Below are positions 7,524 to 30,702 of a DNA stretch of 64,000 nt, one piece after another (position 1 is the first letter of the stretch; each line of letters begins with the position of its first letter). A program made the translations under genes and the position numbers. This stretch comes from Escherichia phage OSYSP, in the sequence record MF402939; one strand, given 5' to 3'. The notes below the pieces were generated by a model, which was not told the DNA's origin, searched no databases, and worked only from the letters and a program-made list of their open reading frames with translations.

Positions 7524-7760
7524 TTACTCTCCAGTAGGATTATCTAAGGTATACTGAGTAGCTACTCCAGCTACATCTAGCAGACTTCCCATATTCCTAA
7601 TAACTCTAGAGATTGCGTCACCTTCGGCAGTTTCTGTAAACACCTTAAGTCTTAAGAAATCGCCACCACCATCCATACCAGAGAAAATATTTAGTAAGCG
7701 AAGCATTACCAACTTACGTTCATTCAATTCTTGTTCTGTCATGTTGCTTCTCCAGTTCAA
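7524..7760 (-). CDS. hypothetical protein (78 aa)
   Basis: ORF track; GGAGA SD. Confidence 0.6.
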   Translation of the reverse strand: MNWRSNMTEQELNERKLVMLRLLNIFSGMDGGGDFLRLKVFTETAEGDAISRVIRNMGSLLDVAGVATQYTLDNPTGE

Positions 7761-7792
7761 TTTATGTAATTATTATATAGAACTTTTGGAAA

Positions 7793-8065: not shown

Positions 8066-8082
8066 CAGCATCTCCTTCAATT

Positions 8083-8157
8083 TGGTGCACCCTGTTCGAA
8101 TTGAACGAACCTCTCAAGCTCTTCAGGCAAGCGCTAATCCATCTCAGCTAAAGGTGC
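8083..8157 (-). tRNA. tRNA, probable anticodon GAA (Phe?), weak anticodon stem
   Basis: Acceptor GCACCTT/AGGGTGC, T-arm GTTCG-TTCAATT-CGAAC, loop CTGAAGA at standard positions 32-38 but stem has two T-T mismatches; CCA encoded. Confidence 0.4.
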
Positions 8158-8163
8158 AAATTT

Positions 8164-8234
8164 TGGCAGGGGTAAAGGTATTCGAAACCTTTTCATGGGT
8201 TTTGGAGGCCCATTTGCAACCTATGCGTACCCCA
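8164..8234 (-). tRNA. tRNA-Trp (anticodon CCA), compact D-arm
   Basis: T-arm AAGGT-TTCGAAT-ACCTT, anticodon arm TGGGC-CTCCAAA-ACCCA, 3' TACCCCT-G-CCA; T1-T72 mismatch. Confidence 0.45.
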
Positions 8235-8243
8235 ATTGTTAAT

Positions 8244-8318
8244 TGGCACACCCACGGAGAATTGAACTCCGATTCTCAGATTGAAATCCTGATGTCCTAG
8301 CCATTAGACGATAGGTGC
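8244..8318 (-). tRNA. tRNA-Glu (anticodon TTC)
   Basis: Acceptor GCACCTA/TGGGTGT (G-U pairs), anticodon arm TCAGG-ATTTCAA-TCTGA, T-arm CGGAG-TTCAATT-CTCCG, CCA encoded. Confidence 0.6.
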
Positions 8319-8326
8319 ATTAAATT

Positions 8327-8414
8327 TGGTGGGCGTTAATGGAGTCGAACCACTCGAGTCGCAATGACCAGGGATTTACAATCCCCTCCGCTACCACTTA
8401 CGGAATAAACGCCC
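8327..8414 (-). tRNA. tRNA-Tyr (anticodon GTA), type II
   Basis: Acceptor GGGCGTT/AACGCCC, anticodon arm GGGGA-TTGTAAA-TCCCT, long variable arm, T-arm TGG-TTCGACT-CCA, CCA encoded. Confidence 0.7.
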
Positions 8415-8542
8415 ATATTTAGAAGCATTCAAATACTTGTTTAAACACTTTTAAATATGTTTCCAAATTAGATAACTATTATATCAAGTTTTAAGGCACT
8501 GAGCAAGTCAGATTTTGAAGAACTTGCTCAGTGCTGTATTAG

Positions 8543-8818
8543 TTAGTCGAACTTAGGAGTGACAATTAAAGAGAATGGGAGTTCGAAAACTTCTTCACCC
8601 TCATTACTAACAGTAACTACACGACCTTTAAGTTCAGACATTGAAATATCAATATCAGCTTTTGCATCTGGAGCCATTCCAGCTTCAACACATTTAGCTT
8701 TAACTTCCGGAAGGAGTTCTACATCGTAGAAATAAAGCCATTCAATCTCACCTTCCCAGCCTTCCCAGGATTTACAGATTGCACTTTCAATACCAGTTGC
8801 TATAACACGATTTTGCAT
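8543..8818 (-). CDS. hypothetical protein (91 aa)
   Basis: ORF track; AGGAG SD; followed on minus strand by a 13-bp-stem hairpin (about 8470-8515). Confidence 0.6.
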   Translation of the reverse strand: MQNRVIATGIESAICKSWEGWEGEIEWLYFYDVELLPEVKAKCVEAGMAPDAKADIDISMSELKGRVVTVSNEGEEVFELPFSLIVTPKFD

Positions 8819-8908
8819 TCGTTAACTCCTTCATCAATTTATATAACTATTATATCAGAAATTTAAAGTAAAAGGCAAGTACATTTTTAAAAATTCTGTT
8901 CGGAGGAG

Positions 8909-9115
8909 CTAAACTCCAGATTCTTCGGCCAAGTCTAGACTAATAAGAGTTATAGCCATAATTGCTGCACCGTGTTCTTTTTCTCCGGTGTTTTTAGCAG
9001 AGCCTATAATATCCTTAATCTGTTCGTAATAACTTTTTACTTCTTGTTCAATGCCTGCCTCGGCTATCATGCCTTTAGTCATGAATCGTTGCATGGTAAT
9101 TTCAGGATTAGCCAT
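8909..9115 (-). CDS. hypothetical protein (68 aa)
   Basis: ORF track; ATG overlaps stop of upstream small ORF (ATGGCTAA). Confidence 0.55.
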   Translation of the reverse strand: MANPEITMQRFMTKGMIAEAGIEQEVKSYYEQIKDIIGSAKNTGEKEHGAAIMAITLISLDLAEESGV

Positions 9116-9275
9116 GTTGTTTCTCCAGTTTCATTTTTAATAGTTTACAGATGAAATCAACGTCTTCATCTGTGCCTAAGTCTCTATCTTCAAGGGTCGC
9201 CTTGAAGTTTTTCGTCAATTCCATAAGGATGACTTCCCTAGAACGACGTGTTGGTGGCGGAGGAGGTCTATACAT
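9108..9275 (-). CDS. small proline-rich hypothetical protein (55 aa)
   Basis: Not in ORF track; ATG with AAGGA SD; stop overlaps next start; translation MYRPPPPPTRRSREV... Confidence 0.4.
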   Translation of the reverse strand: MYRPPPPPTRRSREVILMELTKNFKATLEDRDLGTDEDVDFICKLLKMKLEKQHG

Positions 9276-9290
9276 CTTAATTCCTTAATT

Positions 9291-9367
9291 TGGTAGGGGT
9301 GGTGGGATTCGAACCCACAAAACCTGAATTTTAAGTCCAGTACCTATGCCAATTCGATTACACCCCC
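9291..9367 (-). tRNA. tRNA, anticodon TAA (Leu UUA reader?) with short variable arm
   Basis: Acceptor GGGGGTG/CACCCCT, anticodon arm CTGGA-CTTAAAA-TTCAG, T-arm GTGGG-TTCGAAT-CCCAC, discriminator A, CCA encoded; 77 nt. Confidence 0.45.
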
Positions 9368-9474
9368 ATGTAATCAGTTTATTAGTTGATACATATTATA
9401 GCCTAAAGAAAACCCTACTACTAATCCTACGAACCAACCAATATAATAATCTTTTAATTTCACGGGTGTCAACC

Positions 9475-9654
9475 TCATTCAATATCTAGAGAAATACCAC
9501 AGGTAGGATTAATGCCTGTGCCTTTGCACGTAGGACAAACCCAGATATTACAGAATGTATCCCCTGCTTCTGCATCAGAACTTTCTCCAACTCCTAGACA
9601 GTCAGGACAGGCACATTCTTCTAGCTCTTGCTTGAGTTCTTGAAACTTAGACAT
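9475..9654 (-). CDS. small zinc-ribbon protein (59 aa, two CxxC pairs)
   Basis: Not in ORF track; ATG with AAGGA SD; translation MSKFQELKQELEECACPDCLG...CPTCKGTG. Confidence 0.45.
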   Translation of the reverse strand: MSKFQELKQELEECACPDCLGVGESSDAEAGDTFCNIWVCPTCKGTGINPTCGISLDIE

Positions 9655-9663
9655 ATAGTTTCC

Positions 9664-9852
9664 TTATTCAATTACTTTTGAGGCTTCAAGGGAGTCGATA
9701 TAGTGTACGTTTTCTACCATAATCATATAATCTGCCACTTTATCCATAGCCTGAACTTCAGAGGTAGCCCTGGCTAACCTATATCCTTTTTTATATTCAT
9801 CCGGGTATTCCCTATCTGGAATAAACACAACACAAACTAGGTATAGTTCCAC
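9664..9852 (-). CDS. hypothetical protein (62 aa)
   Basis: ORF track. Confidence 0.45.
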   Translation of the reverse strand: MELYLVCVVFIPDREYPDEYKKGYRLARATSEVQAMDKVADYMIMVENVHYIDSLEASKVIE

Positions 9853-9873
9853 TTGTAACCTCTCTAATCAAGA

Positions 9874-9951
9874 TGGTGGCTCCCCGAGGATTCGAACCTA
9901 CGTACCTTCCGGTTATGAGCCGGGTGCTCATACCATATGAGCTTGAGAACC
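9874..9951 (-). tRNA. tRNA, anticodon CAT, initiator-like anticodon arm
   Basis: Acceptor GGTTCTC/GGGAGCC, anticodon arm CCGG-CTCATAA-CCGG followed by GAAGG as in initiator tRNA; T-stem imperfect; CCA encoded. Confidence 0.45.
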
Positions 9952-9957
9952 AGAATT

Positions 9958-10046
9958 TGGCGGAAGAAGTGGGAATCGAACCCACAAGGCTATATTTCAA
10001 ACCGACAGATTAGCAATCTGCTGCAATACCGTTATGCTATTCTTCC
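9958..10046 (-). tRNA. tRNA-Ser (anticodon GCT), type II
   Basis: Acceptor GGAAGAA/TTCTTCC, anticodon arm GCAGA-TTGCTAA-TCTGT, long variable arm, T-arm GTGGG-TTCGATT-CCCAC, CCA encoded. Confidence 0.65.
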
Positions 10047-10067
10047 GAATTTATAAGATATATTATA

Positions 10068-10586
10068 TTAGAAATTTAGCTTCATAGCAAGAAAATTTTT
10101 CAAGTTTTCGGTAGACATCTCATCCACATCTACAGGAGAAACAAATCCATTTAATTGTCTAGCAAATTTTTCACCAGCAGGATCATTATCCCCAACAGCT
10201 ACCAATTTAAAAGGTAGTAATTTCAATTGCTTTAACAACGCTTTTCCTGGAGAAGAACCCAACATTGCCAGGGCTGGATAACCAGCGTTATGTAATGCTA
10301 CTGCCTTAAATACAGATTCAGCAATCAATACTACTTTTTCATCCCCAGTGAGGGTTTCTAGCCCCCATACACACTGTGTAGTAGAATAAGTAAAATATCT
10401 AGCTTCAAAGGGGCACTTACCATGACCTTTTGGAGCAGAAGGATTATACGTCTGATAGCCTCTCAACATCCCAGAGAAGTCATACAATGGGACTGTTAGC
10501 CATCCTTCCGGACTTAACCAGCAATGATACTTATCTGTATCAAACCCTCTAGATAAGAGATGTTCTGTTAGTTCATCAACAGTCAT
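10068..10586 (-). CDS. small Toprim-domain protein (about 172 aa)
   Basis: Start moved to ATG (MTVDEL...) after GAGAGAGG SD, because the first ATG of track ORF 10068-10637 lies inside the promoter; motifs IAESV...GSS...LVAVGDNDPAGEKFA match a Toprim fold. Confidence 0.6.
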   Translation of the reverse strand: MTVDELTEHLLSRGFDTDKYHCWLSPEGWLTVPLYDFSGMLRGYQTYNPSAPKGHGKCPFEARYFTYSTTQCVWGLETLTGDEKVVLIAESVFKAVALHNAGYPALAMLGSSPGKALLKQLKLLPFKLVAVGDNDPAGEKFARQLNGFVSPVDVDEMSTENLKNFLAMKLNF

Positions 10587-10616
10587 ATTAGATTCCTCTC
10601 TCAAATTTATAAATAT

Positions 10617-10645
10617 ATTATACAGAGAATTTAGCATTCAAGCAA
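10617..10645 (-). promoter_or_regulatory. sigma70-type early promoter (TTGCTT-17-TATAAT) with downstream ATAAATTTGAGAGAGG box
   Basis: Consensus hexamers and conserved downstream element on minus strand. Confidence 0.65.
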
Positions 10646-10761
10646 TTGAATTTTTTAACTTTTTAGAGGAAAATCATAGGATGCTTAAGGGTAGCAGGTA
10701 AGTGATCAGGACCGAAATTTGTGACCCCACTAAAAATCTGGGGGCAATTTTTAAAGACCCC

Positions 10762-10790
10762 TTGACATTTTCGCCGGGGTAATGTAAAGT
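10762..10790 (+). promoter_or_regulatory. sigma70-type promoter (TTGACA-17-TAAAGT) for the plus-strand low-complexity cassette
   Basis: Perfect -35 hexamer, 17-nt spacer, 4/6 -10; about 60 nt upstream of AGGAGG-ATG at 10853. Confidence 0.55.
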
Positions 10791-10852
10791 ATATGTTATG
10801 GATGAGTGATCAAAGAGACACACATTTTCTATATACTAGGAGGTGTCAAAAA

Positions 10853-11833
10853 ATGACAGAAGAAGTAGCTAAGAGTCCTGAAACCGTCGCTAGCGTAGCA
10901 GCAGAACTGCATCGTCACGAGGAATCAGATAAGAAAAAGTGGGAGAAAGTCAAAGCCTACGAGGAAAAACATCGTGAACACGATGAAGATGATGAAGAAG
11001 ATGACGATGATGAACATTGTCATAAATATGGAAAACATAAAATGCAAGAACCAGTAAACGTATTTACTAACGGCTTCCCTGGCATGGGTGCATTCCCAGC
11101 TAACGCAAGTGCTTTCGGTGGAGAAGGTATGGGTCTATTCGGAGCTATCCTAATCGGTGCTCTATTAACAGGCGGATTTGGTGGTTTTGGTGGTTTTGGT
11201 CGCGGTGCTGGCGTTGCCGCTGAAGGGACTGCTGTGGACGCGATCCTTTCTAACCAAGATACTGCAAGTATTCTAGCTGCAATCAATACTACTCGTACAG
11301 AAGCTAACCAGGGCACTGGGGCTGTTCTAAGCGCAGTAAACGGTGTGGGAGCTGCTCAAGCTGCTAGCACTCAGCAAGTTCTGACTACTGTCTACGGTAC
11401 AGGTGCTAATCTGTCAAACCAGATCTGTGCTGAAACTCGTAACGTTATTCAGGGTCAGTTCGATCTTTCTCGTCAGATGGATCAATCTTTCGCTGCTAAC
11501 CAGATAGCACGTGCTCAAGATAAGTTTGACTCTGCTCAGATTGCTTTCCAGCAGTCTATTCAGACTAACAACCAGTTCGCCGCTGTTCAGGCTCAGATGT
11601 GTGCTAACCAGAACGCTATCGAACGTCAGCTTGCTGAATGTTGCTGTGAGCTTCAGACTGCGATCGCTGGTGTAACTACTGCGCGTATTCAGGACGAACT
11701 GAATGAATGCCGTCTGCGTGAAGCAATCGCTCAAGGTAGTGGTGCAAATGGTCAGGTAATCAACCAAATCGCTGTAAGTCTTGGTGCTATCACTCAGACT
11801 CTGGCTGGTCTGCAGGCTAAACTGCCGGCTTAA
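10853..11833 (+). CDS. low-complexity protein (326 aa): acidic/His-rich N-terminus, Gly-rich hydrophobic segment, Ala/Gln/Asn-rich C-terminal domain
   Basis: Start set at ATG after AGGAGG (9-nt spacing) rather than track start 10793; segments EDDEEDDDDEHCHKYGKHK, GLFGAILIGALLTGGFGGFGGFGRGAG and CCC triplet; ctg/cgt/gct-biased codons; opposite strand to neighbours. Confidence 0.7.
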   Translation: MTEEVAKSPETVASVAAELHRHEESDKKKWEKVKAYEEKHREHDEDDEEDDDDEHCHKYGKHKMQEPVNVFTNGFPGMGAFPANASAFGGEGMGLFGAILIGALLTGGFGGFGGFGRGAGVAAEGTAVDAILSNQDTASILAAINTTRTEANQGTGAVLSAVNGVGAAQAASTQQVLTTVYGTGANLSNQICAETRNVIQGQFDLSRQMDQSFAANQIARAQDKFDSAQIAFQQSIQTNNQFAAVQAQMCANQNAIERQLAECCCELQTAIAGVTTARIQDELNECRLREAIAQGSGANGQVINQIAVSLGAITQTLAGLQAKLPA

Positions 11834-11854
11834 AATTAAGGGGAGGAGCCCATT

Positions 11855-12271
11855 ATGAGTAAATATGGTTTTGTAAACAACGGATTTAATCAACAAATGG
11901 GCTCCCAGCAGCCCGTTCCGGGTCTGGATAATCCTTACCTACAACAGTTGCAACAGCGTTTAGCAGAAGCTCAACAGATGCAGCAACAACTCCAGCAAAA
12001 CCCTGGAAGTGTGAGTCCTATGCAAATGATGCAGCAAATGAGCGGGCAGTCGCAAATGCCTCAACAAATGCAGCAACAGGTGCCTCAGCAGCAAGTTCAG
12101 CAACAAACCCAACAACCGCAGGTTTCTGCGGAAGGACAGGCAGTACTAGCCCTTTTCGAAGATTTCGCAAAGACAGAGGATGGGAAACAGCTTGTATCAC
12201 TTATGGGTAAGTTTAATAGCTTCTGCCAAAGCCAAGTTGCAAAAGCTCAAAATGGTGATAATAACTCCTAA
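11855..12271 (+). CDS. glutamine-rich low-complexity protein (138 aa)
   Basis: ORF track; AAGGGGAGGAG SD; long Q/M-rich tracts (QQMQQQLQQ...QQMQQQVPQQQVQQQTQQPQ). Confidence 0.65.
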   Translation: MSKYGFVNNGFNQQMGSQQPVPGLDNPYLQQLQQRLAEAQQMQQQLQQNPGSVSPMQMMQQMSGQSQMPQQMQQQVPQQQVQQQTQQPQVSAEGQAVLALFEDFAKTEDGKQLVSLMGKFNSFCQSQVAKAQNGDNNS

Positions 12272-12280
12272 GGAGGAATT

Positions 12281-12475
12281 ATGTGTTGCAGAAAATCTGT
12301 TTCGTGCTGCCCAATGCCTGTAGCACGTTGTTGCTCTCCAGCAATGTTTACACAAATACCGGCGTTCAATCCCTTTGCCTTTAAGCCTATTCTTATCCTG
12401 CCCCCTAGAGTAGATTTTCAGTCAAGATTGGCCTCCCGTATGGGTGGTTGCTGTAACAAGAGTATATGGTTCTAA
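12281..12475 (+). CDS. small cysteine-rich protein (64 aa; CC doublets)
   Basis: ORF track; AAGGAGG SD; MCCRKSVSCCPMPVARCCSP...GGCCNKS; followed by an intrinsic terminator. Confidence 0.55.
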   Translation: MCCRKSVSCCPMPVARCCSPAMFTQIPAFNPFAFKPILILPPRVDFQSRLASRMGGCCNKSIWF

Positions 12476-12490
12476 AGAACCAAACAATAA

Positions 12491-12526
12491 AGCCCCTAGT
12501 CGAAAGACTTAGGGGCTTTTTCTTTT
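12491..12526 (+). terminator. rho-independent terminator ending the plus-strand cassette
   Basis: Hairpin AGCCCCTAG-loop-CTAGGGGCT followed by a T-run. Confidence 0.7.
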
Positions 12527-12536
12527 GCCTTAAATA

Positions 12537-12571
12537 CAGAAAAGCCCGCGCTCTCGGAGAAAACGCGGGCT
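12537..12571 (-). terminator. rho-independent terminator after the SPFH gene
   Basis: Hairpin GCCCGCG-loop-CGCGGGC followed by TTTT on minus strand; convergent with the previous terminator. Confidence 0.6.
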
Positions 12572-12595
12572 TAGTTCGAAGATTACGTGTAACTA

Positions 12596-13543
12596 TTACT
12601 TGTTACGCATATCCATGATCATTTGACCATCATAGCCAGTGCCAACTACAGTCTGAGGTACACCACCTTGATATTTCTGAGCACGAATCATCTCAACTTC
12701 CAGTTGTTTCCAACGAATCATCTCAGGAGTAATGGTACGTTGCAGTGCGGCGTTAGCTTCAGCTTCTTTCTTAGCTGCGTACAGTTTAGCATCTGCGTCA
12801 CGTTCATTAGCAATAGCTTGGTTATTGCGAGCTTCACGATCTGCTTCTGCTTGTTTAACTTTTTGCTGTGCTTCCTGTTCAACGCGGGCAAGTTCAGCTT
12901 TCGCAGCGTTAACTTGCTCTTCACGAACTTTGGTATTCTGTACCTGTTCCATGATTACCGGTGGCAAAGTAATATCTTGAAGAAACACCTGCTTAACTGT
13001 GTAACCATATGGGCGTGCATACTCTTCAACTTCCTGTTGAATTGCAGTTTGCAATTGAGCCTGAATTTTAGCATCAAACAAATCTTGTGCTTTAGGTACA
13101 GACTTACCAAACTCACAAATAGTAGATAGTAATTTTTCAGTTACATATTTGTCTAACGCTTGATCCTGAGTACCTGCATTAATACGGTTAATCGGTGCCT
13201 TAGAACCATCAAACTGCAACATAACAGTCAGATCAACAGTGGATTTAAACTTATCCTGACTAGGAACCTGAAGTTTATCTAATTTTACAGCAATATCTTT
13301 TGTACTAAAAGTATCGAAAGATGCAAACGGGTTTACAATATGGAAACCAGGTAATACTGGATTAGGGTCTACTTTACCCAGGAATGTTTGAGTTTTAACC
13401 GTACCATCAGAAACAATAGTATATGAATTAAAAGCTAGGATTAAACCTGCTAAACCAACTACAGCACCAATACCCCAACGTTTAATAGTGCGAATTACTT
13501 TTTGCTCAGAAGTCAGTTCTTTCATATTTTTAGTATTAAACAT
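12596..13543 (-). CDS. SPFH/band-7 (HflK/HflC-like) membrane protein
   Basis: 315 aa; N-terminal hydrophobic helix (IGAVVGLAGLILAF), then SPFH-like core and long Ala/Glu/Gln-rich coiled coil; AAGGA SD. Confidence 0.6.
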   Translation of the reverse strand: MFNTKNMKELTSEQKVIRTIKRWGIGAVVGLAGLILAFNSYTIVSDGTVKTQTFLGKVDPNPVLPGFHIVNPFASFDTFSTKDIAVKLDKLQVPSQDKFKSTVDLTVMLQFDGSKAPINRINAGTQDQALDKYVTEKLLSTICEFGKSVPKAQDLFDAKIQAQLQTAIQQEVEEYARPYGYTVKQVFLQDITLPPVIMEQVQNTKVREEQVNAAKAELARVEQEAQQKVKQAEADREARNNQAIANERDADAKLYAAKKEAEANAALQRTITPEMIRWKQLEVEMIRAQKYQGGVPQTVVGTGYDGQMIMDMRNK

Positions 13544-13580
13544 ATATTTCCTTTGTTTTAGTTACAGTTAATAAAATTGA

Positions 13581-13652
13581 CCGAGGTGACAGGATTCGAA
13601 CCTGCATAAAGGAATTTAGAAGACTCCTGCCTCTCCCTTAGACTACACCCCG
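13581..13652 (-). tRNA. tRNA-Arg (anticodon TCT), CCA not encoded
   Basis: Acceptor CGGGGTG/CACCTCG, anticodon arm GGAGT-CTTCTAA-ATTCC, T-arm GCAGG-TTCGAAT-CCTGT. Confidence 0.55.
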
Positions 13653-17328: not shown

Positions 17329-18030
17329 TCAAATTTTCATTTTTTCGATCATAGCTGCAACACAATAGCTTTCAACTAAGGCATCAAATGCAGGATCATG
17401 CTTAACCGGATAGATCCCATAACGAATGGTGTCCATCTTCTCCATTTTAGCTATTGCCCAGCTAATACCTTCGGTCTCTAGAGCCTTATAACTGTATCCA
17501 GCTTGCATCCAGAGATTACGAAGAGATCGAACATTACCCAAATTCCAGAATTTCCACGGAACTACCTCTTCATTGGTTCCAGCATGGAACGTGTTTGCAG
17601 AGTATATAGTCATATCAAACTCTGGGCCATTGCCATAATACAAAGCATTTTCGCCTAGAGCCAACTCCATAATATTTTGAGTCATAGAGAAGGCAGCATA
17701 GTTTGAGCCTAATTTATTAGTGCAATGATGTTTACCATTTTGGAAGGCAATCAGTTTTGGATTACGTTCCTTCATAGCTTCCATAATGTGAATAGCAGAC
17801 GGGCTATTTTTAGCTTGATCCATCCAGAATGCTAGAGTAGATGCTGTAACTTTGGCACCAGAATTAAGCTGATCCTGCACATCCAAAGTAACAAATACTA
17901 AGTCAGGGTCTTTATCAATCCCATGCATAGCCACAAAAGCGAAAGAAGGCATTGCAATATGAGTAGTACCACAATCTCCTGGAGTTCCTAGAGATTCAAT
18001 ATCTAGCATACCAAATGGTTTTACTTTCAT
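17329..18030 (-). CDS. DEDDh-type 3'-5' exonuclease-like protein
   Basis: 233 aa; MLDIESLG (Exo I D-x-E) and HDPAFDALVESY (Exo III H-x4-D) motifs; AAGGA SD. Confidence 0.5.
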   Translation of the reverse strand: MKVKPFGMLDIESLGTPGDCGTTHIAMPSFAFVAMHGIDKDPDLVFVTLDVQDQLNSGAKVTASTLAFWMDQAKNSPSAIHIMEAMKERNPKLIAFQNGKHHCTNKLGSNYAAFSMTQNIMELALGENALYYGNGPEFDMTIYSANTFHAGTNEEVVPWKFWNLGNVRSLRNLWMQAGYSYKALETEGISWAIAKMEKMDTIRYGIYPVKHDPAFDALVESYCVAAMIEKMKI

Positions 18031-18336: not shown

Positions 18337-18552
18337 TTACTTGCCCAGCAGTTTAAGGATATTTTCCATAATAGTTTGGGCAGATTTTTCACTCTTGTTG
18401 GTTTCAGCCAACTTTAAAGCGAGTTCTTCCTGCTGTTTCTGAATATCCGCAGCAATTTTTTGATCAGCCTCAATACGAGCTTGAAGCTCATCAGTGATAG
18501 TGGTAAAGGAAGCAACGATTTCAGTAACGGAACGTGGTTTCTTAGAGAACAT
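18337..18552 (-). CDS. hypothetical protein (71 aa, coiled coil)
   Basis: ORF track; AAGGA SD. Confidence 0.55.
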   Translation of the reverse strand: MFSKKPRSVTEIVASFTTITDELQARIEADQKIAADIQKQQEELALKLAETNKSEKSAQTIMENILKLLGK

Positions 18553-18616
18553 AAAAAATATCCTTGATTAGTTAGAGAATCAGTAGATTGTAGGGGCTCT
18601 CGCCCCTATTTATCTA

Positions 18617-19132
18617 TTACTTCGCTTTACGCTTGCGAGCTGGTTTAGCAGATTTACGAGCAGAATCACCCGTGAACTTAATACCTACACCGTAACACAG
18701 AGCACGAACATTATCCTTGCTATATTCTACGCCAAAGATATTTGGCTTAACAGAACCAAACTGGCCACGAGTATCACGCAGTACATCTGCCGTTGGTTTA
18801 CGCTTCTGGTTAACTGCTTTCTCATAGTCTTTCATGGCCATGCCATTACGAGAGAACAATTCAGCTCCAGCATTGAAACTCAGTGTTACTGAAACAGATT
18901 TGTGGCCATAACCCTGTACATAGGTCACAAGGCGGGCTACAGAACGAGTAGCATTCTTAGCCTTCGGCTTTTGACGAATCGGAGCCGGACGATTCAGTGC
19001 CTGTGCAGCTTGAGCATCAGTAGGGTGCTTGCGCAGGTGGCGTTCCAGACGAGCTTTGCGGTTAGCCTCAGTCTGCGGGAAAGTTTTAACTGTAGTAGCT
19101 GCTTGAGTTTTTGCGTTTTTCTGCTTAGCCAT
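18617..19132 (-). CDS. basic hypothetical protein (171 aa), possible nucleic-acid binding
   Basis: ORF track; Lys/Arg-rich termini; AAGGA SD. Confidence 0.6.
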   Translation of the reverse strand: MAKQKNAKTQAATTVKTFPQTEANRKARLERHLRKHPTDAQAAQALNRPAPIRQKPKAKNATRSVARLVTYVQGYGHKSVSVTLSFNAGAELFSRNGMAMKDYEKAVNQKRKPTADVLRDTRGQFGSVKPNIFGVEYSKDNVRALCYGVGIKFTGDSARKSAKPARKRKAK

Positions 19133-19170: not shown

Positions 19171-19199
19171 ATTATACGAGAATTTGAAGCGTTTAGCAA
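19171..19199 (-). promoter_or_regulatory. sigma70-type promoter (TTGCTA-17-TATAAT)
   Basis: Consensus hexamers on minus strand. Confidence 0.6.
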
Positions 19200-19207
19200 A
19201 TGAATTT

Positions 19208-19657
19208 TTAATTTATTAACTGTAATCTTCTTTTAATTTCAGACCTTACCTGCATCAAAAGAACTCCCAAAGTATTATCCCCGATGCCTCGGCAAACACC
19301 CCAATATGTATCTCCCCAGGTATTTCCTTCAATCAAAGTTGCACTTTCTGTTGCTAACAGTTTATCTCTCAAATCAGGGATTGCAAACTTTAACCGTAAA
19401 AGCTCTAGCATTACATCATCTTTTACCTTATCCCAGTCAGAGCGTAGAGTTAATTTACGTCCTCTACGTTTAGCAACTCCTGCATTCAGGGAGCGTAGTA
19501 CATGAGCTACATCATCTTTTTGGTCGGATTTTATAGCCTGAAAAGCATGTTCTACAGTATCAGCATGCCATATTTCATTTAGATATTCGAAAGTAATTGG
19601 TGATAAATAAAAGTTAGATAAGAAACTATAAGCACCTTTAAATTCAGTAATCTTCAT
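19208..19657 (-). CDS. NADAR (YbiA-like, DUF1768) domain protein
   Basis: 149 aa; matches YbiA pattern: YSFLSNFY, W..DTVEHAFQAIK, KRRGRK, LL.LKF, LLAT....LIEGN..GD.YWG...G.G.N.LG.LLM.VR. Confidence 0.75.
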   Translation of the reverse strand: MKITEFKGAYSFLSNFYLSPITFEYLNEIWHADTVEHAFQAIKSDQKDDVAHVLRSLNAGVAKRRGRKLTLRSDWDKVKDDVMLELLRLKFAIPDLRDKLLATESATLIEGNTWGDTYWGVCRGIGDNTLGVLLMQVRSEIKRRLQLIN

Positions 19658-19938
19658 TTTTTACGCCCCGCATCTTTAGCCTCTTCGGCTGTATAGATAT
19701 ACTGATAAGCCCCTTTGGAGTAGGCTGGAGCAGTACACATTTTCTTACGCTCAATCTCTTCTTGAGCTTTTCTTTCGCGTTCAGCTAATTCTTCATCCAG
19801 ATAAACTAAACGTTGTTCTGGAGGAGGTGGAAGACGTGTTTCTGGCTCACCAATATTAGCCTTTCTTATTTGACGAGGTGATTGTGCACGTTTTCTCAAC
19901 GGTTTAAATCCTAATGAATTTGAGTTATAAATTCGCAT
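19654..19938 (-). CDS. hypothetical protein (94 aa)
   Basis: ORF track; GAGGAGG SD; translationally coupled to NADAR gene (ATGA overlap). Confidence 0.6.
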   Translation of the reverse strand: MRIYNSNSLGFKPLRKRAQSPRQIRKANIGEPETRLPPPPEQRLVYLDEELAERERKAQEEIERKKMCTAPAYSKGAYQYIYTAEEAKDAGRKK

Positions 19939-20014
19939 AAAGCCCTCCTCACTTTCAATACGAATATTATACTAAATTAGAGGGCTTTAAGCAAGAAGAT
20001 TTTTAATTTATTTA

Positions 20015-20491
20015 TCACATCTCGGCCATTTCAGCTTCAGTAATAACTGTGTTACACAGTGCATCTACAGCTTCATTACCACTAATACCAGAATGTCCTT
20101 TAACCTTAATAAAGGTAGGATTAGTATTATGAAAGTTGATATACTGCTGTGTTAATTTAAATGCTTCCTGCCAAAGTTCTAGATTAAGAGGAACTTCACC
20201 ATCTGCTTTCTTCCAGCCTTTCCTTTGCCAAGAAAACATCCAACTTTCCATACCATTTTTGCAATAAGCAGAGTCAGTATAGATAACAATTGGTCTATTA
20301 TCTTTTTTAACGGACCAACGTAGAGCTTCTACAATAGCTGTGAGTTCCATCTCATTATTTGTAGTTTTAGGACTATAACCAGATTTAGAGCCTAAACGAT
20401 CGTCGTTATCATCATAGACAATAAAACCCCAAGCACCTGGGCCTGGGTTAGACTTACAAGCACCATCTGTGTAAATGTGGAAAACCGACAT
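20015..20491 (-). CDS. rnhA: ribonuclease H (RNase HI family)
   Basis: 158 aa; IYTDGAC..NPGPG, ELTAI, TDS.Y, W...W...GWK, GHSG...NE.VD motifs. Confidence 0.85.
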   Translation of the reverse strand: MSVFHIYTDGACKSNPGPGAWGFIVYDDNDDRLGSKSGYSPKTTNNEMELTAIVEALRWSVKKDNRPIVIYTDSAYCKNGMESWMFSWQRKGWKKADGEVPLNLELWQEAFKLTQQYINFHNTNPTFIKVKGHSGISGNEAVDALCNTVITEAEMAEM

Positions 20492-20691
20492 TATTTTTCA
20501 CCTTCTGTTATCTCTTTAGTTTTTGACTGGGTAGGAGGCTTGGGTTTTATAGCCTCTAACTCTCTATCCAGAAATTCCTCTATTGCTCTATCTACAAAAT
20601 AATCATATGGTAAATGATAATATTCTGATAGAGTAAGAAGTTTGAGTTCTTGCTTTTCTGTTAAATAAACTTTCTTTCTAAAGAGTCCCAT
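20491..20691 (-). CDS. hypothetical protein (66 aa)
   Basis: ORF track; GGAGA SD; coupled to rnh. Confidence 0.55.
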   Translation of the reverse strand: MGLFRKKVYLTEKQELKLLTLSEYYHLPYDYFVDRAIEEFLDRELEAIKPKPPTQSKTKEITEGEK

Positions 20692-20785
20692 ATGTGTATC
20701 TCCAATTTATAAAATATATTATATTTAAATTTCACTAAATAAGCAAATGAAATTTAAATATAATAGCCCCGAAGGGCTATTTGAG

Positions 20786-21625
20786 TTAAGAAGACATCTT
20801 AGCTTTAAGAGCTGGGTGAGGGTCGTACCCCTCTAAATGGAATGACCAAGCTGCCGTATTATTTTCTAATAAATCGTAAAGATCTACAAACTCTGGCATT
20901 ACTAGAGTTGGCAGAGGGCGTGGCTTGCGTTTTACCTGTTCTTCTACCTGTTCCATGTGGTCATTATAGATATGAGTATCACCGCCGCTAAAGATAAGAT
21001 AACGAGGTTTTAATCCTGTCAGTTTTGCTAATATATGCGTTAATAAAGCATAACTAGCAATATTGAAAGGTAAACCGAGGAAACAATCCACAGAGCGTTG
21101 TGTCCATTTAAGATCTAGGTATCCATCGTTACTTACATAGCACTGGAAGCCGTAGTGACAAGGTGGTAATGCCATTTTATCAAGTTCAGCTACGTTCCAT
21201 GCAGAAACTAGATGTCTGCGGCCATGGGGATTATTCTTGAGTCCTTCAATAAGCTCTAGAATCTGATCTCGCCCACCAAAGTTACGCCACTGTTTACCAT
21301 ATACCGGTCCTAGATTACCCTTATCATACCCCATACTTATAGCTTGGTCTTCATAATTTGGAGTCCAGATGGTCCACTGTCCTTCGTCACGCCCAAATGT
21401 GAATACACGTAGATCATGAAGATTTGTGGAACCAGACAAGAACCATAAAAGTTCTCCTACTACTGATTTCCAGGCCAGGCGTTTAGTAGTTACAGCCGGG
21501 AACCCTTCACGTAGATCGAACTTAGCATAGGAATCAAAAATTGAAACTGTGCCTGTTCCTGTACGGTCATTACGGGGTTCACCTAATAAAATTACATCTG
21601 TCAAAATTTTTAAGTATTGTTGCAT
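20786..21625 (-). CDS. thyA: thymidylate synthase
   Basis: 279 aa; ThyA signatures (LAWKSVVGELLWFLSG, active-site PPCH, FQCYV, FLGLPFNIASYALL). Confidence 0.9.
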   Translation of the reverse strand: MQQYLKILTDVILLGEPRNDRTGTGTVSIFDSYAKFDLREGFPAVTTKRLAWKSVVGELLWFLSGSTNLHDLRVFTFGRDEGQWTIWTPNYEDQAISMGYDKGNLGPVYGKQWRNFGGRDQILELIEGLKNNPHGRRHLVSAWNVAELDKMALPPCHYGFQCYVSNDGYLDLKWTQRSVDCFLGLPFNIASYALLTHILAKLTGLKPRYLIFSGGDTHIYNDHMEQVEEQVKRKPRPLPTLVMPEFVDLYDLLENNTAAWSFHLEGYDPHPALKAKMSS

Positions 21626-22158
21626 TAATAAGTAACCAATTCCTGTACAAATCGCAGGCTGTTATCACTGTTTGCGCCAACTGCATAGACTAATCGAGTG
21701 GATTCATAGTTATAATCCAGTATCATACTATCTAAGTGTATATCTGCCTCTAGCTTCTGTTCGCTAAAGATTGTAGATACAAAAGCACTTTCTATATGCC
21801 CATGTTGGTACATTTCTAGAAGAAGATTAGCTCCACCTAGAACTACTGTTTGCTGATCTTTTAGAAAAGTAGGTAATGTATCACCTATCATTGATATGGG
21901 AGTGTAAATATCATGCGTAATATCGTCTGGCAATGGACGATCAGCACGAATAAATAGGTCAGAAGCTCCAATCATACGTTCCCTAACGGCATATGGAAGA
22001 GCTAAATAAGTACCTGCCCCAATAATAATATTATCAGGATTTAGTACATCTAATTGTGAATAAAAAGCATCTAGTTCTTCTTTAAAAGAACCCCAGGGAA
22101 GTTTACCACGGAGGCCGAACTCCCCATTCGGCCCAACTGCATACATTGCTGTAATCAT
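21625..22158 (-). CDS. dihydrofolate reductase-like protein
   Basis: 177 aa; N-terminal MITAMYAVGPNGEFG...LPW pattern; sits between thyA and nrdB as in T5-like phages. Confidence 0.65.
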   Translation of the reverse strand: MITAMYAVGPNGEFGLRGKLPWGSFKEELDAFYSQLDVLNPDNIIIGAGTYLALPYAVRERMIGASDLFIRADRPLPDDITHDIYTPISMIGDTLPTFLKDQQTVVLGGANLLLEMYQHGHIESAFVSTIFSEQKLEADIHLDSMILDYNYESTRLVYAVGANSDNSLRFVQELVTY

Positions 22159-23300
22159 AGGAAATCTCCAAATTCATTGCCCAGATCTTTCAGAGTATCA
22201 GTAGAGGTCTCAGTTACCTGACCTACACGGTAGGCTGCACCAATCTGGATTTCTTGTGGAGCAGGCTGTAGGGAAGTAGTATCCAACCAGTTCATGATCC
22301 ACGGAATAGGGTTTTTGGTGATTACTGGTAAGTGATTAGGCCATTCTACACCAATGTGCATAAATGCATTACGCCCCACAAAGTACAAGTATTCTTCTAG
22401 AAGTTCTGCATTCAAACCAATCAGACTACGACCTTTGAAAATGAAATGACCCCATTCAATTTCAGTTTTCAGAGTTTTCAGAAGCTGTGCTGGTGCTTTA
22501 GCCACTGCTTCATCTACCAGATCTTTGTCAAACTGCTGGAACATAATCTGGATGATTGTTTTAGACATCTGCGTGTGAAGGGCCTCATCCTTAGCAATCA
22601 ACTGCAGATTTTTAGCAATACCTTGCAGGATATCGTTCTCTGCTAACGCAAAGGTACATGCAAAGGATGCGTAGAATTGCATTGCTTCTAGACCGTAGAT
22701 TGCAAAATAAGCATCTAACAGTTTAGCCTGAGTTTCACGCTTAACTTCAGGGAACTCAGTTTCTGGGTATGTATTGTCACCACGATGATCACGTACTGCG
22801 ATGAAATACTGACCTAACTGATACAGTTCATCGAACAGTTCAACAGAATCTGCGATACGTGCGAATGCTTCTTGGTTTTTGGTTACAGAATCAATAAATT
22901 CTGCTGGATCAGTCAGCACATTACGAATAATATTGCTATAGGCACGGCTATGCAGGTCTTCGAAGTAGCTCCACTGCTTTAGCATTCCTTCCAATTCTGG
23001 ACGACTTACAAGTGGCATAATAGCTGCTTCAGGAGCACGACTGATAAAGGAATCTGTTTGGGTCTGCCATGCTAAGTTCAGGAGTGTAATTTCCTGAATT
23101 TCACGTGGGAGGTTAGGCCATTGTTTCTTATCTGCTTCCAGACTGATTTCAGTTTCAGTCCAAAATTGAGAGCGTTGCAGAAGTGCCAGACGCTCTAATT
23201 CTGGATGTGCTACACGCACATAATCTGCGATACCTAGAGAATCGCCCAGGAAAAGATCAGCGTTAGTATGATCCCAATTCAGGTTTAGTAAAGTAGTCAT
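22155..23300 (-). CDS. nrdB: ribonucleotide reductase class Ia beta subunit
   Basis: 381 aa; ferritin-like di-iron radical protein pattern; directly downstream of nrdA. Confidence 0.8.
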   Translation of the reverse strand: MTTLLNLNWDHTNADLFLGDSLGIADYVRVAHPELERLALLQRSQFWTETEISLEADKKQWPNLPREIQEITLLNLAWQTQTDSFISRAPEAAIMPLVSRPELEGMLKQWSYFEDLHSRAYSNIIRNVLTDPAEFIDSVTKNQEAFARIADSVELFDELYQLGQYFIAVRDHRGDNTYPETEFPEVKRETQAKLLDAYFAIYGLEAMQFYASFACTFALAENDILQGIAKNLQLIAKDEALHTQMSKTIIQIMFQQFDKDLVDEAVAKAPAQLLKTLKTEIEWGHFIFKGRSLIGLNAELLEEYLYFVGRNAFMHIGVEWPNHLPVITKNPIPWIMNWLDTTSLQPAPQEIQIGAAYRVGQVTETSTDTLKDLGNEFGDFL

Positions 23301-29698: not shown

Positions 29699-29885
29699 TT
29701 TAAACACCGCTTTGGAAAACGCACTAATGCAGCACTGGGAAACTGGTTATAAGGATGGTGTTGAATCCTGCGCTACTATGCTAGAAGTTATTGCTAGTAC
29801 CTTAGTGGAGAAAGGTAATAAAGAATTGGCTGAGCTATTAGACAGTATTGGGCAAAACTTTAGAGAACAGGTGAAAAATGCGTAG
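29664..29885 (+). CDS. hypothetical protein (73 aa)
   Basis: ORF track; GAGGAG SD; overlaps previous ORF by 35 nt. Confidence 0.45.
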   Translation: MAFSKPMLPGSDLNTALENALMQHWETGYKDGVESCATMLEVIASTLVEKGNKELAELLDSIGQNFREQVKNA

Positions 29886-30702
29886 ATTAATTATTATCAG
29901 TGGTGCAGGTTTGAGTGTTGAAAGCGGTGTACGAGCCTTCCGTACTGATACTGCTAGTGGTAAAGCATTGTGGGATGATTATGATTTAGAAGAGGTATGT
30001 AGTATTCATGCCTTTCGTGGTAACTTTTATCATAAAACCCATATGTTTTACAACAAGCGACGTGAAGAGCTAAAAACTGTTGAGCCTAACCTTGCGCATC
30101 TTCGTATTGGTGAGTGGTATAAGAAATATCCGGGTCAAGTAGTAAATTTGACTACTAACGTTGATGACCTTATTGAGCGTGCTGGTGTTCCCCATAATGA
30201 TATTCTCCACATTCATGGATACTTAAAGGAGGTTGTTGTAGCTGATAGCTACAATAGTAGTAATAAACGAATTATTGATGTTGGGTATAACTCTATTGAT
30301 CCGGATGATTATAAATGGGTTAAACCTAATGTAATCTTCTTTGGGGAGCATGCTCCAGCGTACGCAGAAATGTACAATATTTTTGATGGTATTACCAGTC
30401 AAGATATGGTCGTTGTAGTTGGTTGCTCTAACCAAGTAATTAACTTCTACTGGGAATTATTCCCTGTTCTTAACCGTACTGCTGCGAAACTTATGGTGGT
30501 TAACTACTACGATAGTGCCCTAGCGGCAGAACCAGGTTATCAAGGTATGACTCGTAGTGAGATGTACCAGTTGGAAGAACGCGGTATCCCCTACTGGAGT
30601 AAAGGTGCGGTAGATGCTTTCAGTGATCCTGGTTTTATTGCTCGTGTAGAAGCTCATCTAGAGGGTAGACCTTATATGCCGGGAAAACAGATATGTCCAT
30701 AG
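29878..30702 (+). CDS. Sir2 (sirtuin)-like NAD-binding protein
   Basis: 274 aa; N-terminal IISGAGLSVESGVRAFR matches the sirtuin GAGxS..SGIP.FR NAD-binding motif; TTNVDDL and HIHG motifs; no zinc-binding Cys pairs seen. Confidence 0.6.
   Translation: MRRLIIISGAGLSVESGVRAFRTDTASGKALWDDYDLEEVCSIHAFRGNFYHKTHMFYNKRREELKTVEPNLAHLRIGEWYKKYPGQVVNLTTNVDDLIERAGVPHNDILHIHGYLKEVVVADSYNSSNKRIIDVGYNSIDPDDYKWVKPNVIFFGEHAPAYAEMYNIFDGITSQDMVVVVGCSNQVINFYWELFPVLNRTAAKLMVVNYYDSALAAEPGYQGMTRSEMYQLEERGIPYWSKGAVDAFSDPGFIARVEAHLEGRPYMPGKQICP

What the first reader, a model, noticed from the sequence alone, without database searches (positions are those of the whole stretch)
19208..19938. Phage-encoded NADAR (YbiA-like) protein: candidate reversal of DNA or RNA ADP-ribosylation
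CDS 19208-19657 carries the full NADAR signature pattern. NADAR-family enzymes are reported to hydrolyse ADP-ribose from guanine bases, the modification made by DarT-type toxins of DarTG defence systems. A phage copy, translationally coupled to a 94-aa ORF, is a plausible anti-defence or NAD-salvage gene.
Basis: partly seen in the sequence, partly recalled or inferred. Interest (0 to 1): 0.65.

Follow-up and report, generated by a model that had tools for sequence, protein, structure and literature searches.

The report
Known phage anti-DarT1 NADAR enzyme (AdfN)

Summary
On the minus strand, 19208-19657 encodes a 149-aa protein that matches Pfam NADAR (E 2.7e-21, 76.9 bits, cut-off 35.1). Its predicted structure is confident (pLDDT 97.5) and matches E. 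coli YbiA and the Phytophthora NADAR-ADP-ribose crystal structure. It keeps every catalytic and ADP-ribose-contact residue (E36, K43, E110, D116, W119).

The window is a T5-like phage (Tequintavirus). The protein is 146/149 identical to bas32_0066 of phage Bas32, with the same gene order. That protein was published as AdfN^Bas32 (Johannesman et al., Nat Commun 2025). There it neutralised the DarT1 toxin and restored plaquing of three DarTG1-sensitive phages, but had no effect against DarTG2. The anti-defence reading is therefore supported, and already known.

The 94-aa ORF does overlap the NADAR start (ATGA). It is not a NADAR partner, though. It is the core T5 gene T5.090, found in about 540 phage records, including T5 itself, which lacks NADAR.

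NADAR is an accessory gene in about 22% of close T5 relatives. It has no promoter of its own and sits between T5.090 and promoter P-H207. NAD salvage and a riboflavin housekeeping role are not supported.

Interest is low. The open points are necessity in the native phage and the range of substrates.

The parts
19208..19657 (-). NADAR-domain gene (149 aa), the orthologue of AdfN^Bas32 (bas32_0066). It is an orphan antitoxin-like guanine ADP-ribosylglycohydrolase. Catalytic and ADPr-contact residues are E36, K43, E110, D116 and W119.
   Evidence: Pfam PF08719 at E 2.7e-21. 146/149 identical to Bas32. Catalytic residues invariant. AF2 pLDDT 97.5. Foldseek TM 0.81 to YbiA 2b3w and 0.73 to 8bau.
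19654..19938 (-). Upstream 94-aa ORF, the homologue of T5.090 (phrog_4593). It is a core T5-like gene of unknown function with a conserved C-terminal motif, ...ELAERE..AQ.EIERKK.C.APAYSKGAYQYI. It supplies the transcript and probably the ribosomes for NADAR.
   Evidence: The AF2 model is poor (pLDDT 68.9, mostly disordered, then a helix and a beta-hairpin).
19654..19657 (-). ATGA overlap: the stop of the 94-aa ORF and the start of NADAR. The same overlap is present in Bas32, KS_S14 and WP85.
   Evidence: Sequence. Annotated coordinates.
19966..19994 (-). Early promoter upstream of the 94-aa ORF (TTGCTT, 17 nt, TATAAT), followed by the Shine-Dalgarno sequence GAGGAGGG at 19950-19943. It is the only promoter placed to drive the two-gene unit.
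   Evidence: The stretch is 100% identical to the one annotated as a promoter in T5 (AY543070 46337-46411). It falls below the threshold of the generic sigma-70 scan because only 3 of 6 bases match in the -35 hexamer.
19171..19199 (-). Promoter P-H207 (TTGCTA, 17 nt, TATAAT) of the next gene (DUF7022, the T5.089 homologue). It marks the downstream edge of the NADAR insertion.
   Evidence: Annotated as P-H 207 in T5. Identical in the window. Found by the promoter scan.
19205..19790 (-). Segment that differs from T5: about 455 bp are absent from T5 (the NADAR gene), plus the 3' third of the T5.090 homologue, where identity to T5 falls from 100% to 58%. The same segment is 97-100% identical to Bas32.
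   Evidence: Pairwise alignment and sliding-window identity.

Best explanation
The gene encodes an AdfN-type 'orphan antitoxin': a stand-alone NADAR-fold ADP-ribosylglycohydrolase made early in infection by a T5-like phage.

Mechanism. When a host carries the DarTG1 toxin-antitoxin defence, infection releases DarT1. DarT1 uses NAD+ to attach ADP-ribose to guanine (N2) in phage DNA, and this blocks replication. The phage enzyme binds the ADP-ribose moiety; the equivalents of Phytophthora NADAR residues D130 and W133 are D116 and W119 here. It hydrolyses the N-glycosidic ribose-guanine bond using the E36/K43/E110 centre. This restores unmodified guanine, so replication can proceed.

Expression. 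The gene has no promoter of its own. It is transcribed from the T5.090 early promoter and probably translated by coupling through the ATGA overlap, together with the neighbouring replication and nucleotide-metabolism genes (RNase H, ThyA, DHFR, NrdAB).

What is shown here: the ORF, the fold, the active-site residues, orthology to AdfN^Bas32, its orphan status, and its accessory status in T5-like phages.

What is shown in the literature for the 98%-identical protein: neutralisation of DarT1 toxicity, rescue of RB69, T5 and Bas25 on DarTG1 hosts, and no rescue on DarTG2.

What is inferred: the chemistry at guanine N2 for this particular clade, the early co-expression and translational coupling, and that the gene is needed by its own phage in nature.
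For: NADAR profile hit above the gathering score. The model is confident and matches only YbiA and the P. nicotianae NADAR-ADPr complex in the PDB. E36, K43, E110, D116 and W119 are invariant in 41 homologues. They map onto Pn E43, K50, E125, D130 and W133 as described in PMC11543638. The protein is 146/149 identical to bas32_0066 in the same gene order. The three differences (I42M, S105N, R144S) are not at catalytic positions. AdfN^Bas32 neutralises DarT1 without phage and restores three DarTG1-sensitive phages to full titre, but not T5 on DarTG2 (PMC11825919; preprint). T5 is DarTG1-sensitive in that paper and lacks the gene at exactly this locus. No ADP-ribosyltransferase gene is adjacent. 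Related NADARs sit next to rnh in the replication module in other Demerecviridae.
Against: No experiment was done on this exact sequence. In the text held here, the AdfN^Bas32 evidence comes from ectopic expression: toxin neutralisation and plaque rescue. I found no in-vitro assay and no knockout in a T5-like phage. Some NADARs that are active in vitro, such as YbiA and T4 gp30.3, fail to protect against DarT1 in vivo (PMC11125620), so family membership alone would not have been enough. The gene is absent from about 78% of close T5 relatives, so it is dispensable on most hosts. Early timing and translational coupling are inferred from sequence only.
Confidence: 0.88

Rival explanations
1. The main natural substrate is not DarT1-modified DNA but another ADP-ribose conjugate. 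Candidates are guanosine-ADPr on RNA, cytidine-ADPr on DNA or RNA made by pierisin/ScARP-like toxins, or soluble ADPr-derived immune signals. On this view DarT1 reversal is a side activity.
For: All NADAR families tested remove G-ADPr from RNA (PMC11833690). The 'NADAR' and YbiA families also remove C-ADPr, whereas DarG1 and T4 gp30.3 do not (PMC12945103); the window protein carries the glutamate (E110) that Schuller et al. give as the mark of the YbiA subfamily. Iyer et al. proposed soluble ADPr derivatives as the targets of phage NADARs (PMC9503650). A 61%-identical homologue sits next to a YAcAr/SLOG gene.
Against: The only phenotype demonstrated for this orthologue is strong DarT1 and DarTG1 neutralisation. 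No other ADP-ribosylating defence has been shown to restrict T5-like phages in the literature read here. Broader specificity would add to the anti-DarT1 role rather than replace it.
Confidence: 0.1
2. It is a housekeeping YbiA-type N-glycosidase that detoxifies riboflavin-biosynthesis intermediates. This is the basis of the GenBank labels 'GTP cyclohydrolase II' and 'swarming motility protein'.
For: The best PDB sequence match is E. coli YbiA (E 6.8e-15, 37% identity in the structural alignment). There is a partial hit to TIGR02464, 'riboflavin biosynthesis intermediates N-glycosidase'.
Against: The TIGR02464 score of 64.5 is below its curated cut-off of 73.7. No riboflavin genes are nearby. 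The orthologue neutralises DarT1, whereas E. coli YbiA does not. Johannesman et al. place AdfN^Bas32 outside the YbiA-like housekeeping group.
Confidence: 0.02
3. The 94-aa ORF and NADAR form a dedicated two-protein anti-defence module, for example with the small protein targeting or regulating the hydrolase.
For: The two ORFs share an ATGA overlap. NADAR lies directly beside a T5.090 homologue in two different gene orders: rnh-NADAR-T5.090 in UTK0009 and in a distant metagenomic T5-like contig, and rnh-T5.090-NADAR here.
Against: T5.090 homologues occur in about 540 phage records, but close NADAR copies in only 94. T5 has T5.090 without NADAR. In Vibrio T5-like phage VPG01 the NADAR gene lies upstream of rnh with no annotated ORF of T5.090 size next to it, although homology was not tested there. 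AdfN^Bas32 works when expressed alone. The adjacency is explained more simply by a variable-gene hotspot around rnh.
Confidence: 0.04
4. It is an NAD+ salvage or NAD-metabolism gene that counters NAD-depleting defences.
For: The family name is 'NAD and ADP-ribose associated', and some phage NADARs neighbour NadV and NadM (PMC9503650). A Sir2-family gene lies elsewhere in the window at 29878-30702.
Against: No NadV, NadM or Nudix gene is adjacent. The neighbours are RNase H, T5.090 and DUF7022. NADAR chemistry is N-glycosidic hydrolysis of ADPr conjugates, not NAD synthesis.
Confidence: 0.01

Closest known systems
AdfN^Bas32 (bas32_0066, QXV80247.1) of Escherichia phage IrisVonRoten/Bas32; Johannesman et al., Nat Commun 2025;16:1598
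   Same: 146/149 identical, with the same length, the same flanking genes (rnh, T5.090 homologue, DUF7022 gene) and the same ATGA overlap. It is an orphan NADAR with no DarT neighbour.
   Different: Three substitutions (I42M, S105N, R144S), none at a catalytic or ADPr-contact residue. The host phage differs by about 4% over 25 kb.
E. coli YbiA (PDB 2b3w), the housekeeping NADAR / riboflavin-intermediate N-glycosidase
   Same: Same fold (TM 0.81). Glutamate-type active site with equivalent E, K, E, D and W residues.
   Different: 37% identity. The window protein is below the TIGR02464 equivalog cut-off. YbiA does not protect against DarT1 in vivo, whereas the Bas32 orthologue does.
Phytophthora nicotianae NADAR (PDB 8bau, ADP-ribose complex); Schuller et al., Mol Cell 2023
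   Same: Same fold (TM 0.73). ADPr-binding and catalytic residues E43, K50, E125, D130 and W133 are conserved as E36, K43, E110, D116 and W119.
   Different: 28% identity. The Phytophthora chain is longer (189 vs 149 residues), and the window protein has one extra residue in the E110-D116 loop.
DarG1 (BC4488-type NADAR antitoxin of DarTG1, e.g. E. coli C7 NADAR)
   Same: It works like this: it reverses DarT1 guanine ADP-ribosylation and neutralises the toxin.
   Different: The window gene is not encoded next to a DarT1. Two residues before the conserved glutamate it has L108 where DarG1 has its catalytic aspartate (D171 in E. coli C7). No DarG1 chain appeared among its PDB sequence or fold matches.
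AdfN^T4 / gp30.3, the T4-type 'phage NADAR' family
   Same: Same role as an orphan anti-DarTG1 enzyme, and the same superfamily.
   Different: No pairwise similarity (BLASTP E 1.1), only a remote profile match (hhalign 80%). The T4 type has histidine in place of E110. According to Johannesman et al., AdfN^T4 also needs the T-even phage context, whereas AdfN^Bas32 acts alone.

Membership tests
NADAR superfamily (Pfam PF08719 / DUF1768) | Profile match above the curated gathering score over the whole domain | tested here: met
   76.9 bits against 35.1, E 2.7e-21, profile positions 9-163 of 163.
NADAR superfamily (Pfam PF08719 / DUF1768) | NADAR alpha+beta fold | tested here: met
   AF2 pLDDT 97.5 and pTM 0.91. 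The only significant PDB fold matches are YbiA 2b3w (TM 0.81) and NADAR 8bau (TM 0.73).
NADAR superfamily (Pfam PF08719 / DUF1768) | Conserved catalytic Glu and Lys (Pn E43/K50; E. coli C7 E88/K95), the last-strand acidic residue (Pn E125), and the ADPr contacts D130 and W133 | tested here: met
   E36, K43, E110, D116 and W119 are invariant in the 41-sequence alignment. The mapping comes from the alignments and the residue roles in PMC11543638.
NADAR superfamily (Pfam PF08719 / DUF1768) | Hydrolysis of guanine-linked ADP-ribose | not testable with these tools
   Needs biochemistry. It is implied for the 98%-identical AdfN^Bas32 by DarT1 neutralisation.
AdfN, Bas32 lineage (phage orphan anti-DarTG1 NADAR) | Orthology to the tested protein bas32_0066 | tested here: met
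   146/149 identity over the full length, with identical gene order and 97-100% DNA identity across the locus.
AdfN, Bas32 lineage (phage orphan anti-DarTG1 NADAR) | Orphan: phage-encoded with no cognate DarT toxin adjacent | tested here: met
   The neighbours are the T5.090 homologue, the DUF7022 protein and RNase H. No ART domain was found among the eight ORFs scanned between 17329 and 20691.
AdfN, Bas32 lineage (phage orphan anti-DarTG1 NADAR) | Neutralises DarT1 and restores phage growth on DarTG1 hosts, but not on DarTG2 hosts | not testable with these tools
   Shown for AdfN^Bas32 in PMC11825919 Fig. 5. Not shown for this exact sequence, nor by deletion in a T5-like phage.
T4-type phage NADAR (gp30.3 / AdfN^T4) | Sequence relatedness to gp30.3 | tested here: not met
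   BLASTP E 1.1. There is only a remote profile match, 80% probability over 93 columns.
T4-type phage NADAR (gp30.3 / AdfN^T4) | Histidine replacing the last-strand glutamate | tested here: not met
   The window protein has E110, invariant in its clade. The definition comes from PMC11125620 and PMC11543638.
DarG1 (BC4488 NADAR antitoxin) | Encoded in an operon with DarT1 | tested here: not met
   No DarT or ART gene flanks it. The closest homologues inspected are also orphan genes in phage-like contigs.
DarG1 (BC4488 NADAR antitoxin) | Catalytic aspartate two residues before the conserved glutamate (D171-x-E173 in E. coli C7) | tested here: not met
   The window reads L108-I109-E110. The correspondence rests on the statement in PMC11543638 that E173 is the superfamily-conserved glutamate. 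No direct alignment to E. coli C7 NADAR was made.
YbiA / TIGR02464 riboflavin-intermediate N-glycosidase (equivalog) | Score at or above the curated equivalog cut-off | tested here: not met
   64.5 bits against a cut-off of 73.7.
YbiA / TIGR02464 riboflavin-intermediate N-glycosidase (equivalog) | Last-strand glutamate (YbiA family in the sense of de Souza and Aravind) | tested here: met
   E110. The protein is therefore 'YbiA-like' in active-site type only.

The most novel reading that the evidence does not exclude
The T5-type AdfN carries the glutamate (E110) that marks the YbiA subfamily, rather than the aspartate of DarG1 or the histidine of T4 gp30.3. It may therefore be a broad-spectrum eraser. 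The 'NADAR' and YbiA families remove ADP-ribose from cytidine as well as guanosine, on both DNA and RNA, whereas DarG1 and T4 gp30.3 do not. If this enzyme behaves the same way, it would protect the phage against ADP-ribosylating defences beyond DarTG1, such as pierisin/ScARP-like or still undiscovered toxins.
Probability: 0.3. Interest if true: 0.4.

Novelty: already known. Interest (0 to 1): 0.15.

Why it matters
It matters little as a discovery. The gene family, the exact T5-like orthologue and its anti-DarTG1 function were published in 2025.

The practical value is in annotation. Public records of this gene are mislabelled 'GTP cyclohydrolase II', 'swarming motility protein' or 'hypothetical protein' and can be renamed AdfN (an anti-DarTG1 NADAR). 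Its presence or absence, in about 22% of close T5 relatives, is a usable predictor of which T5-like phages, including therapy candidates, should escape DarTG1-carrying E. coli and Salmonella.

The comparative points added here are modest. The gene is a promoter-less accessory gene dropped between T5.090 and P-H207. It takes three different positions around rnh across Demerecviridae. The 94-aa ORF is a core gene, not a partner.

Tried and rejected
1. A function for the 94-aa ORF. It had no hit in Pfam, NCBIfam or PADLOC and matched only phrog_4593, of unknown function. Homologues are confined to T5-like and a few other phage contigs. The AF2 model was poor (pLDDT 68.9, pTM 0.29), so no fold search was run. 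Its function stays unknown.

2. A dedicated two-gene module made of the 94-aa ORF and NADAR. Rejected on distribution.

3. Membership of the T4 gp30.3 family. Rejected.

4. YbiA equivalog. Rejected, because the score is below the cut-off.

5. DarG1. Rejected on gene context and active-site motif. PADLOC gave only a weak PDC-M42C hit and marginal Drt5 hits. NCBIfam gave a far sub-threshold hit to 'DS32_2 NADAR family anti-phage protein' (43.5 bits against 240).

6. Evidence that Bas32 or Bas33 need the gene natively. The supplements of PMC11825919 are not held. The HIDEN-SEQ preprint covers only T4 adfN.

7. A terminator or separate promoter for NADAR. None was found between 19208 and 19938. 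The only terminator-like hit in that span is on the opposite strand, inside the 94-aa ORF.

8. Two tool calls failed on input limits, and one script failed on a file name. All three were repeated successfully.

Full report
**What is there**

On the minus strand of the window, an ATG-started ORF of 149 codons occupies 19208-19657. It is preceded by a 94-codon ORF at 19654-19938. The two share the tetranucleotide ATGA, so the stop of the upstream ORF overlaps the start of the downstream one.

The genes around them, all on the minus strand, are as follows.
- Downstream: a DUF7022 protein at 18617-19132.
- Upstream: RNase H at 20015-20491, thymidylate synthase at 20786-21625, an ORF annotated as dihydrofolate reductase in Bas32 and T5 at 21625-22158, and an ORF annotated as the ribonucleotide reductase small subunit (NrdB) at 22155-23300 (annotations).

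The window also carries a cluster of 23 tRNA genes. Over 25 kb it is about 96% identical to Tequintavirus genomes such as phage IrisVonRoten (Bas32) and Salmonella phage MET_P1_179_112. The window is therefore part of a T5-like phage genome (Demerecviridae, Markadamsvirinae).

**Is it a NADAR?**

Yes.
- The 149-aa product matches Pfam NADAR (PF08719) end to end at E 2.7e-21 and 76.9 bits, against a gathering score of 35.1. It also matches phrog_1017.
- By sequence, its only structural relatives in the PDB are E. coli YbiA (2b3w, E 6.8e-15) and the Phytophthora nicotianae NADAR (8bau, E 4.8e-7).
- An AlphaFold2 model built on 41 homologues is very confident (mean pLDDT 97.5, pTM 0.91). Foldseek against the PDB returns only those same two structures as significant matches, with TM 0.81 and 0.73.
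- Schuller et al. (PMC11543638) identify E43, E125, D130 and W133 as ADP-ribose contacts in the Phytophthora complex. They identify E88, K95 and D171 as the catalytic residues of the E. coli C7 enzyme.
- The motifs TVEHAFQAIK and LIEGNTWGDTYWG place E36, K43, E110, D116 and W119 at the equivalent positions. All five are invariant in the 41-sequence alignment.

**What is already known about exactly this protein**

- The product is 146/149 identical to bas32_0066 of phage IrisVonRoten (Bas32). The upstream ORF is 93/94 identical to bas32_0065. The gene order is the same.
- Johannesman et al. (preprint PMC11257639; Nat Commun 2025;16:1598, PMC11825919) found this NADAR in Bas32 and Bas33 and named it AdfN^Bas32.
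- They showed that ectopic expression neutralises the DarT1 toxin in E. coli without any phage. It also restores plaquing of the DarTG1-sensitive phages RB69, T5 and Bas25 to full titre. It has no effect on T5 restricted by the thymidine-modifying DarTG2.
- The three residues that differ in the window (I42M, S105N, R144S in Bas32) are not catalytic.
- At least one recent GenBank record already labels the gene 'antitoxin-like enzyme, NADAR superfamily', and another 'NADAR family protein'.

**Which kind of NADAR**

- It is not the T4 gp30.3 (AdfN^T4) type. BLASTP between the two gives E 1.1, and only a remote profile match is detectable. The window protein also has glutamate where the T4 type has histidine.
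- It is not a DarG1. No DarT gene is adjacent. Two residues before the conserved glutamate, where DarG1 has its catalytic aspartate, the window protein has L108.
- It is YbiA-like in fold and active-site type, but it scores below the curated cut-off of the riboflavin-intermediate N-glycosidase equivalog TIGR02464 (64.5 against 73.7 bits). E. coli YbiA itself does not protect against DarT1 in vivo (PMC11125620).
- The nearest relatives in the large protein database are 50-60% identical. In all three cases inspected they sit in phage-like contigs and are likewise orphan genes.
- Homologues are scattered over Streptomyces, Vibrio, Stenotrophomonas, Bacillus and other phages. This agrees with the published view that phages co-opted NADARs several times.

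**The 94-aa ORF is not a partner**

- It is the homologue of T5.090 (phrog_4593). Homologues occur in 539 phage records, of which 437 are at 80% identity or more. One of them is T5 itself, where the protein is 92 aa long.
- Close NADAR copies occur in only 94 records. That is about 22% of the close T5 relatives.
- The 95 records whose T5.090 homologue is at least 95% identical to the window's form (the full-length matches listed are in this band) match the NADAR-positive set in number. The 92-aa form is the one found in T5, which lacks NADAR.
- AdfN^Bas32 works when expressed alone.
- The small protein has no database annotation. It carries a sharply conserved C-terminal motif (AERE..AQ.EIERKK...APAYSKGAYQYI) shared with slightly longer phage proteins. 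Its predicted structure is poor and largely disordered. Its function remains unknown.

**How the gene sits in the genome**

- Aligned with T5, the promoter region upstream of the 94-aa ORF and the first two-thirds of that ORF are 100% identical. The last third diverges progressively.
- About 455 bp containing NADAR are absent from T5. Identity returns to 100% within a few bases of the NADAR stop codon, at the start of the classic T5 promoter P-H207, which drives the DUF7022 gene.
- NADAR therefore has no promoter of its own. I infer that it is transcribed from the T5.090 promoter (TTGCTT, 17 nt, TATAAT at 19994-19966) and translated by coupling. This is not shown.
- The same 5-kb stretch holds two other small variable slots relative to T5, at 20503-20692 and 18343-18620. 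This is a hotspot for accessory genes in the early region.
- Elsewhere in Demerecviridae a related NADAR occupies other positions around rnh. It lies between rnh and the T5.090 homologue in Epseptimavirus UTK0009 (60% identity) and in a distant metagenomic T5-like contig (55% identity). It lies immediately upstream of rnh in Vibrio phage VPG01.
- The consistent placement in the replication and nucleotide-metabolism module fits an enzyme that must act on replicating phage DNA. That is an inference.

**Mechanism, with its status**

- Established for the family (PMC11543638 as read; PMC12945103): DarT1 transfers ADP-ribose from NAD+ to guanine in DNA, and NADARs hydrolyse that linkage. The linkage is listed as DNA-G(N2)-ADPr.
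- Shown for the 98%-identical orthologue: it neutralises DarT1 and rescues phages from DarTG1, but not from DarTG2.
- Shown here: fold, active site, orthology, orphan status and accessory status.
- Inferred: the same chemistry for this allele, early co-expression, and necessity in the native phage.
- T5 lacks the gene and is DarTG1-sensitive, which is consistent with the proposed role but only correlative.
- I found no knockout in a T5-like phage in the literature held here.

**Alternatives**

- A riboflavin housekeeping role and NAD salvage have essentially no support.
- The alternative worth keeping open is broader substrate range. All NADAR families remove G-ADPr from RNA. The 'NADAR' and YbiA families also remove cytidine-ADPr, whereas DarG1 and T4 gp30.3 do not; the window enzyme shares the glutamate that marks the YbiA subfamily.
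- Iyer et al. earlier proposed soluble ADPr-derived signals as targets of phage NADARs.
- None of this contradicts the anti-DarT1 function. It would extend it.

**Verdict**

The gene is an orthologue of an experimentally characterised anti-defence protein, so it is already known and interest is low.
- the 94-aa ORF is a core T5 gene, not a partner;
- the gene lies on the minus strand and has no promoter of its own;
- 'YbiA-like' holds for the fold, not for functional equivalence;
- NAD salvage is not supported.

Noticed in passing
window 29878-30702 (+): A 274-aa Sir2-family protein (Pfam SIR2 E 1.4e-24; phrog_2162 'Sir2 NAD-dependent deacetylase', E 6.7e-121). It is a second NAD-linked gene in the same phage, and its role was not examined.
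   Followed up: no
window 899-13652 (-): A cluster of 23 tRNA genes, all on the minus strand. Two plus-strand ORFs of unknown function lie antisense within it, at 10793-11833 (phrog_8119) and 11855-12271 (phrog_7894).
   Followed up: no
window 20503-20692 and 18343-18620: Two more small variable slots relative to T5 within 2 kb of the NADAR gene. The 66-aa ORF at 20491-20691 (phrog_17630) is absent from T5 and replaced by different sequence in Bas32. The 71-aa ORF at 18337-18552 (phrog_2380) is absent from T5 but present in Bas32. This early region is a hotspot for accessory genes.
   Followed up: partly
window 19171-19199 (-): The T5 promoter P-H207 (TTGCTA, 17 nt, TATAAT) is conserved base for base directly after the NADAR stop codon and drives the DUF7022 (T5.089) gene.
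   Followed up: yes
public records H1-H25; L003 1338-1553: Annotation errors are widespread. The NADAR gene is labelled 'GTP cyclohydrolase II', 'swarming motility protein' or 'hypothetical protein'. The 71-aa coiled-coil ORF is labelled 'tail (length) tape measure protein' or 'baseplate wedge subunit'.
   Followed up: partly
L005 2489-2938; L006 5001-5489; L011 2992-3438: Related NADAR genes take three different positions around rnh in Demerecviridae: NADAR-rnh in Vibrio phage VPG01, rnh-NADAR-T5.090 in UTK0009 and a metagenomic T5-like contig, and rnh-T5.090-NADAR in the window. This suggests either long residence with rearrangement or repeated insertion into the same module.
   Followed up: partly
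L009 4001-4826: In a 58-kb phage-like metagenomic contig, a 61%-identical NADAR overlaps a YAcAr (SLOG-type, Pfam PF10686) gene. It lies about 2 kb downstream of PTPS and GTP cyclohydrolase I genes, which belong to 7-deazaguanine synthesis. This may link guanine-modifying phages with a guanine-ADPr eraser.
   Followed up: no
window 19654-19938 (-) and homologues P0148-P0165: The T5.090 family shares an almost invariant C-terminal block (E..AERE..AQ.EIERKK...APAYSKGAYQYI) with 105-152-aa phage proteins whose N-termini are unrelated. It is a small conserved module of unknown function with no confident structure prediction.
   Followed up: partly
window 17329-18030 (-): This ORF is annotated in T5 and Bas32 as 'putative metallopeptidase', but its Pfam match is to the Rv2179c-like 3'-5' exoribonuclease domain (E 3.3e-8, above the gathering score). 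The public annotation may be wrong.
   Followed up: no
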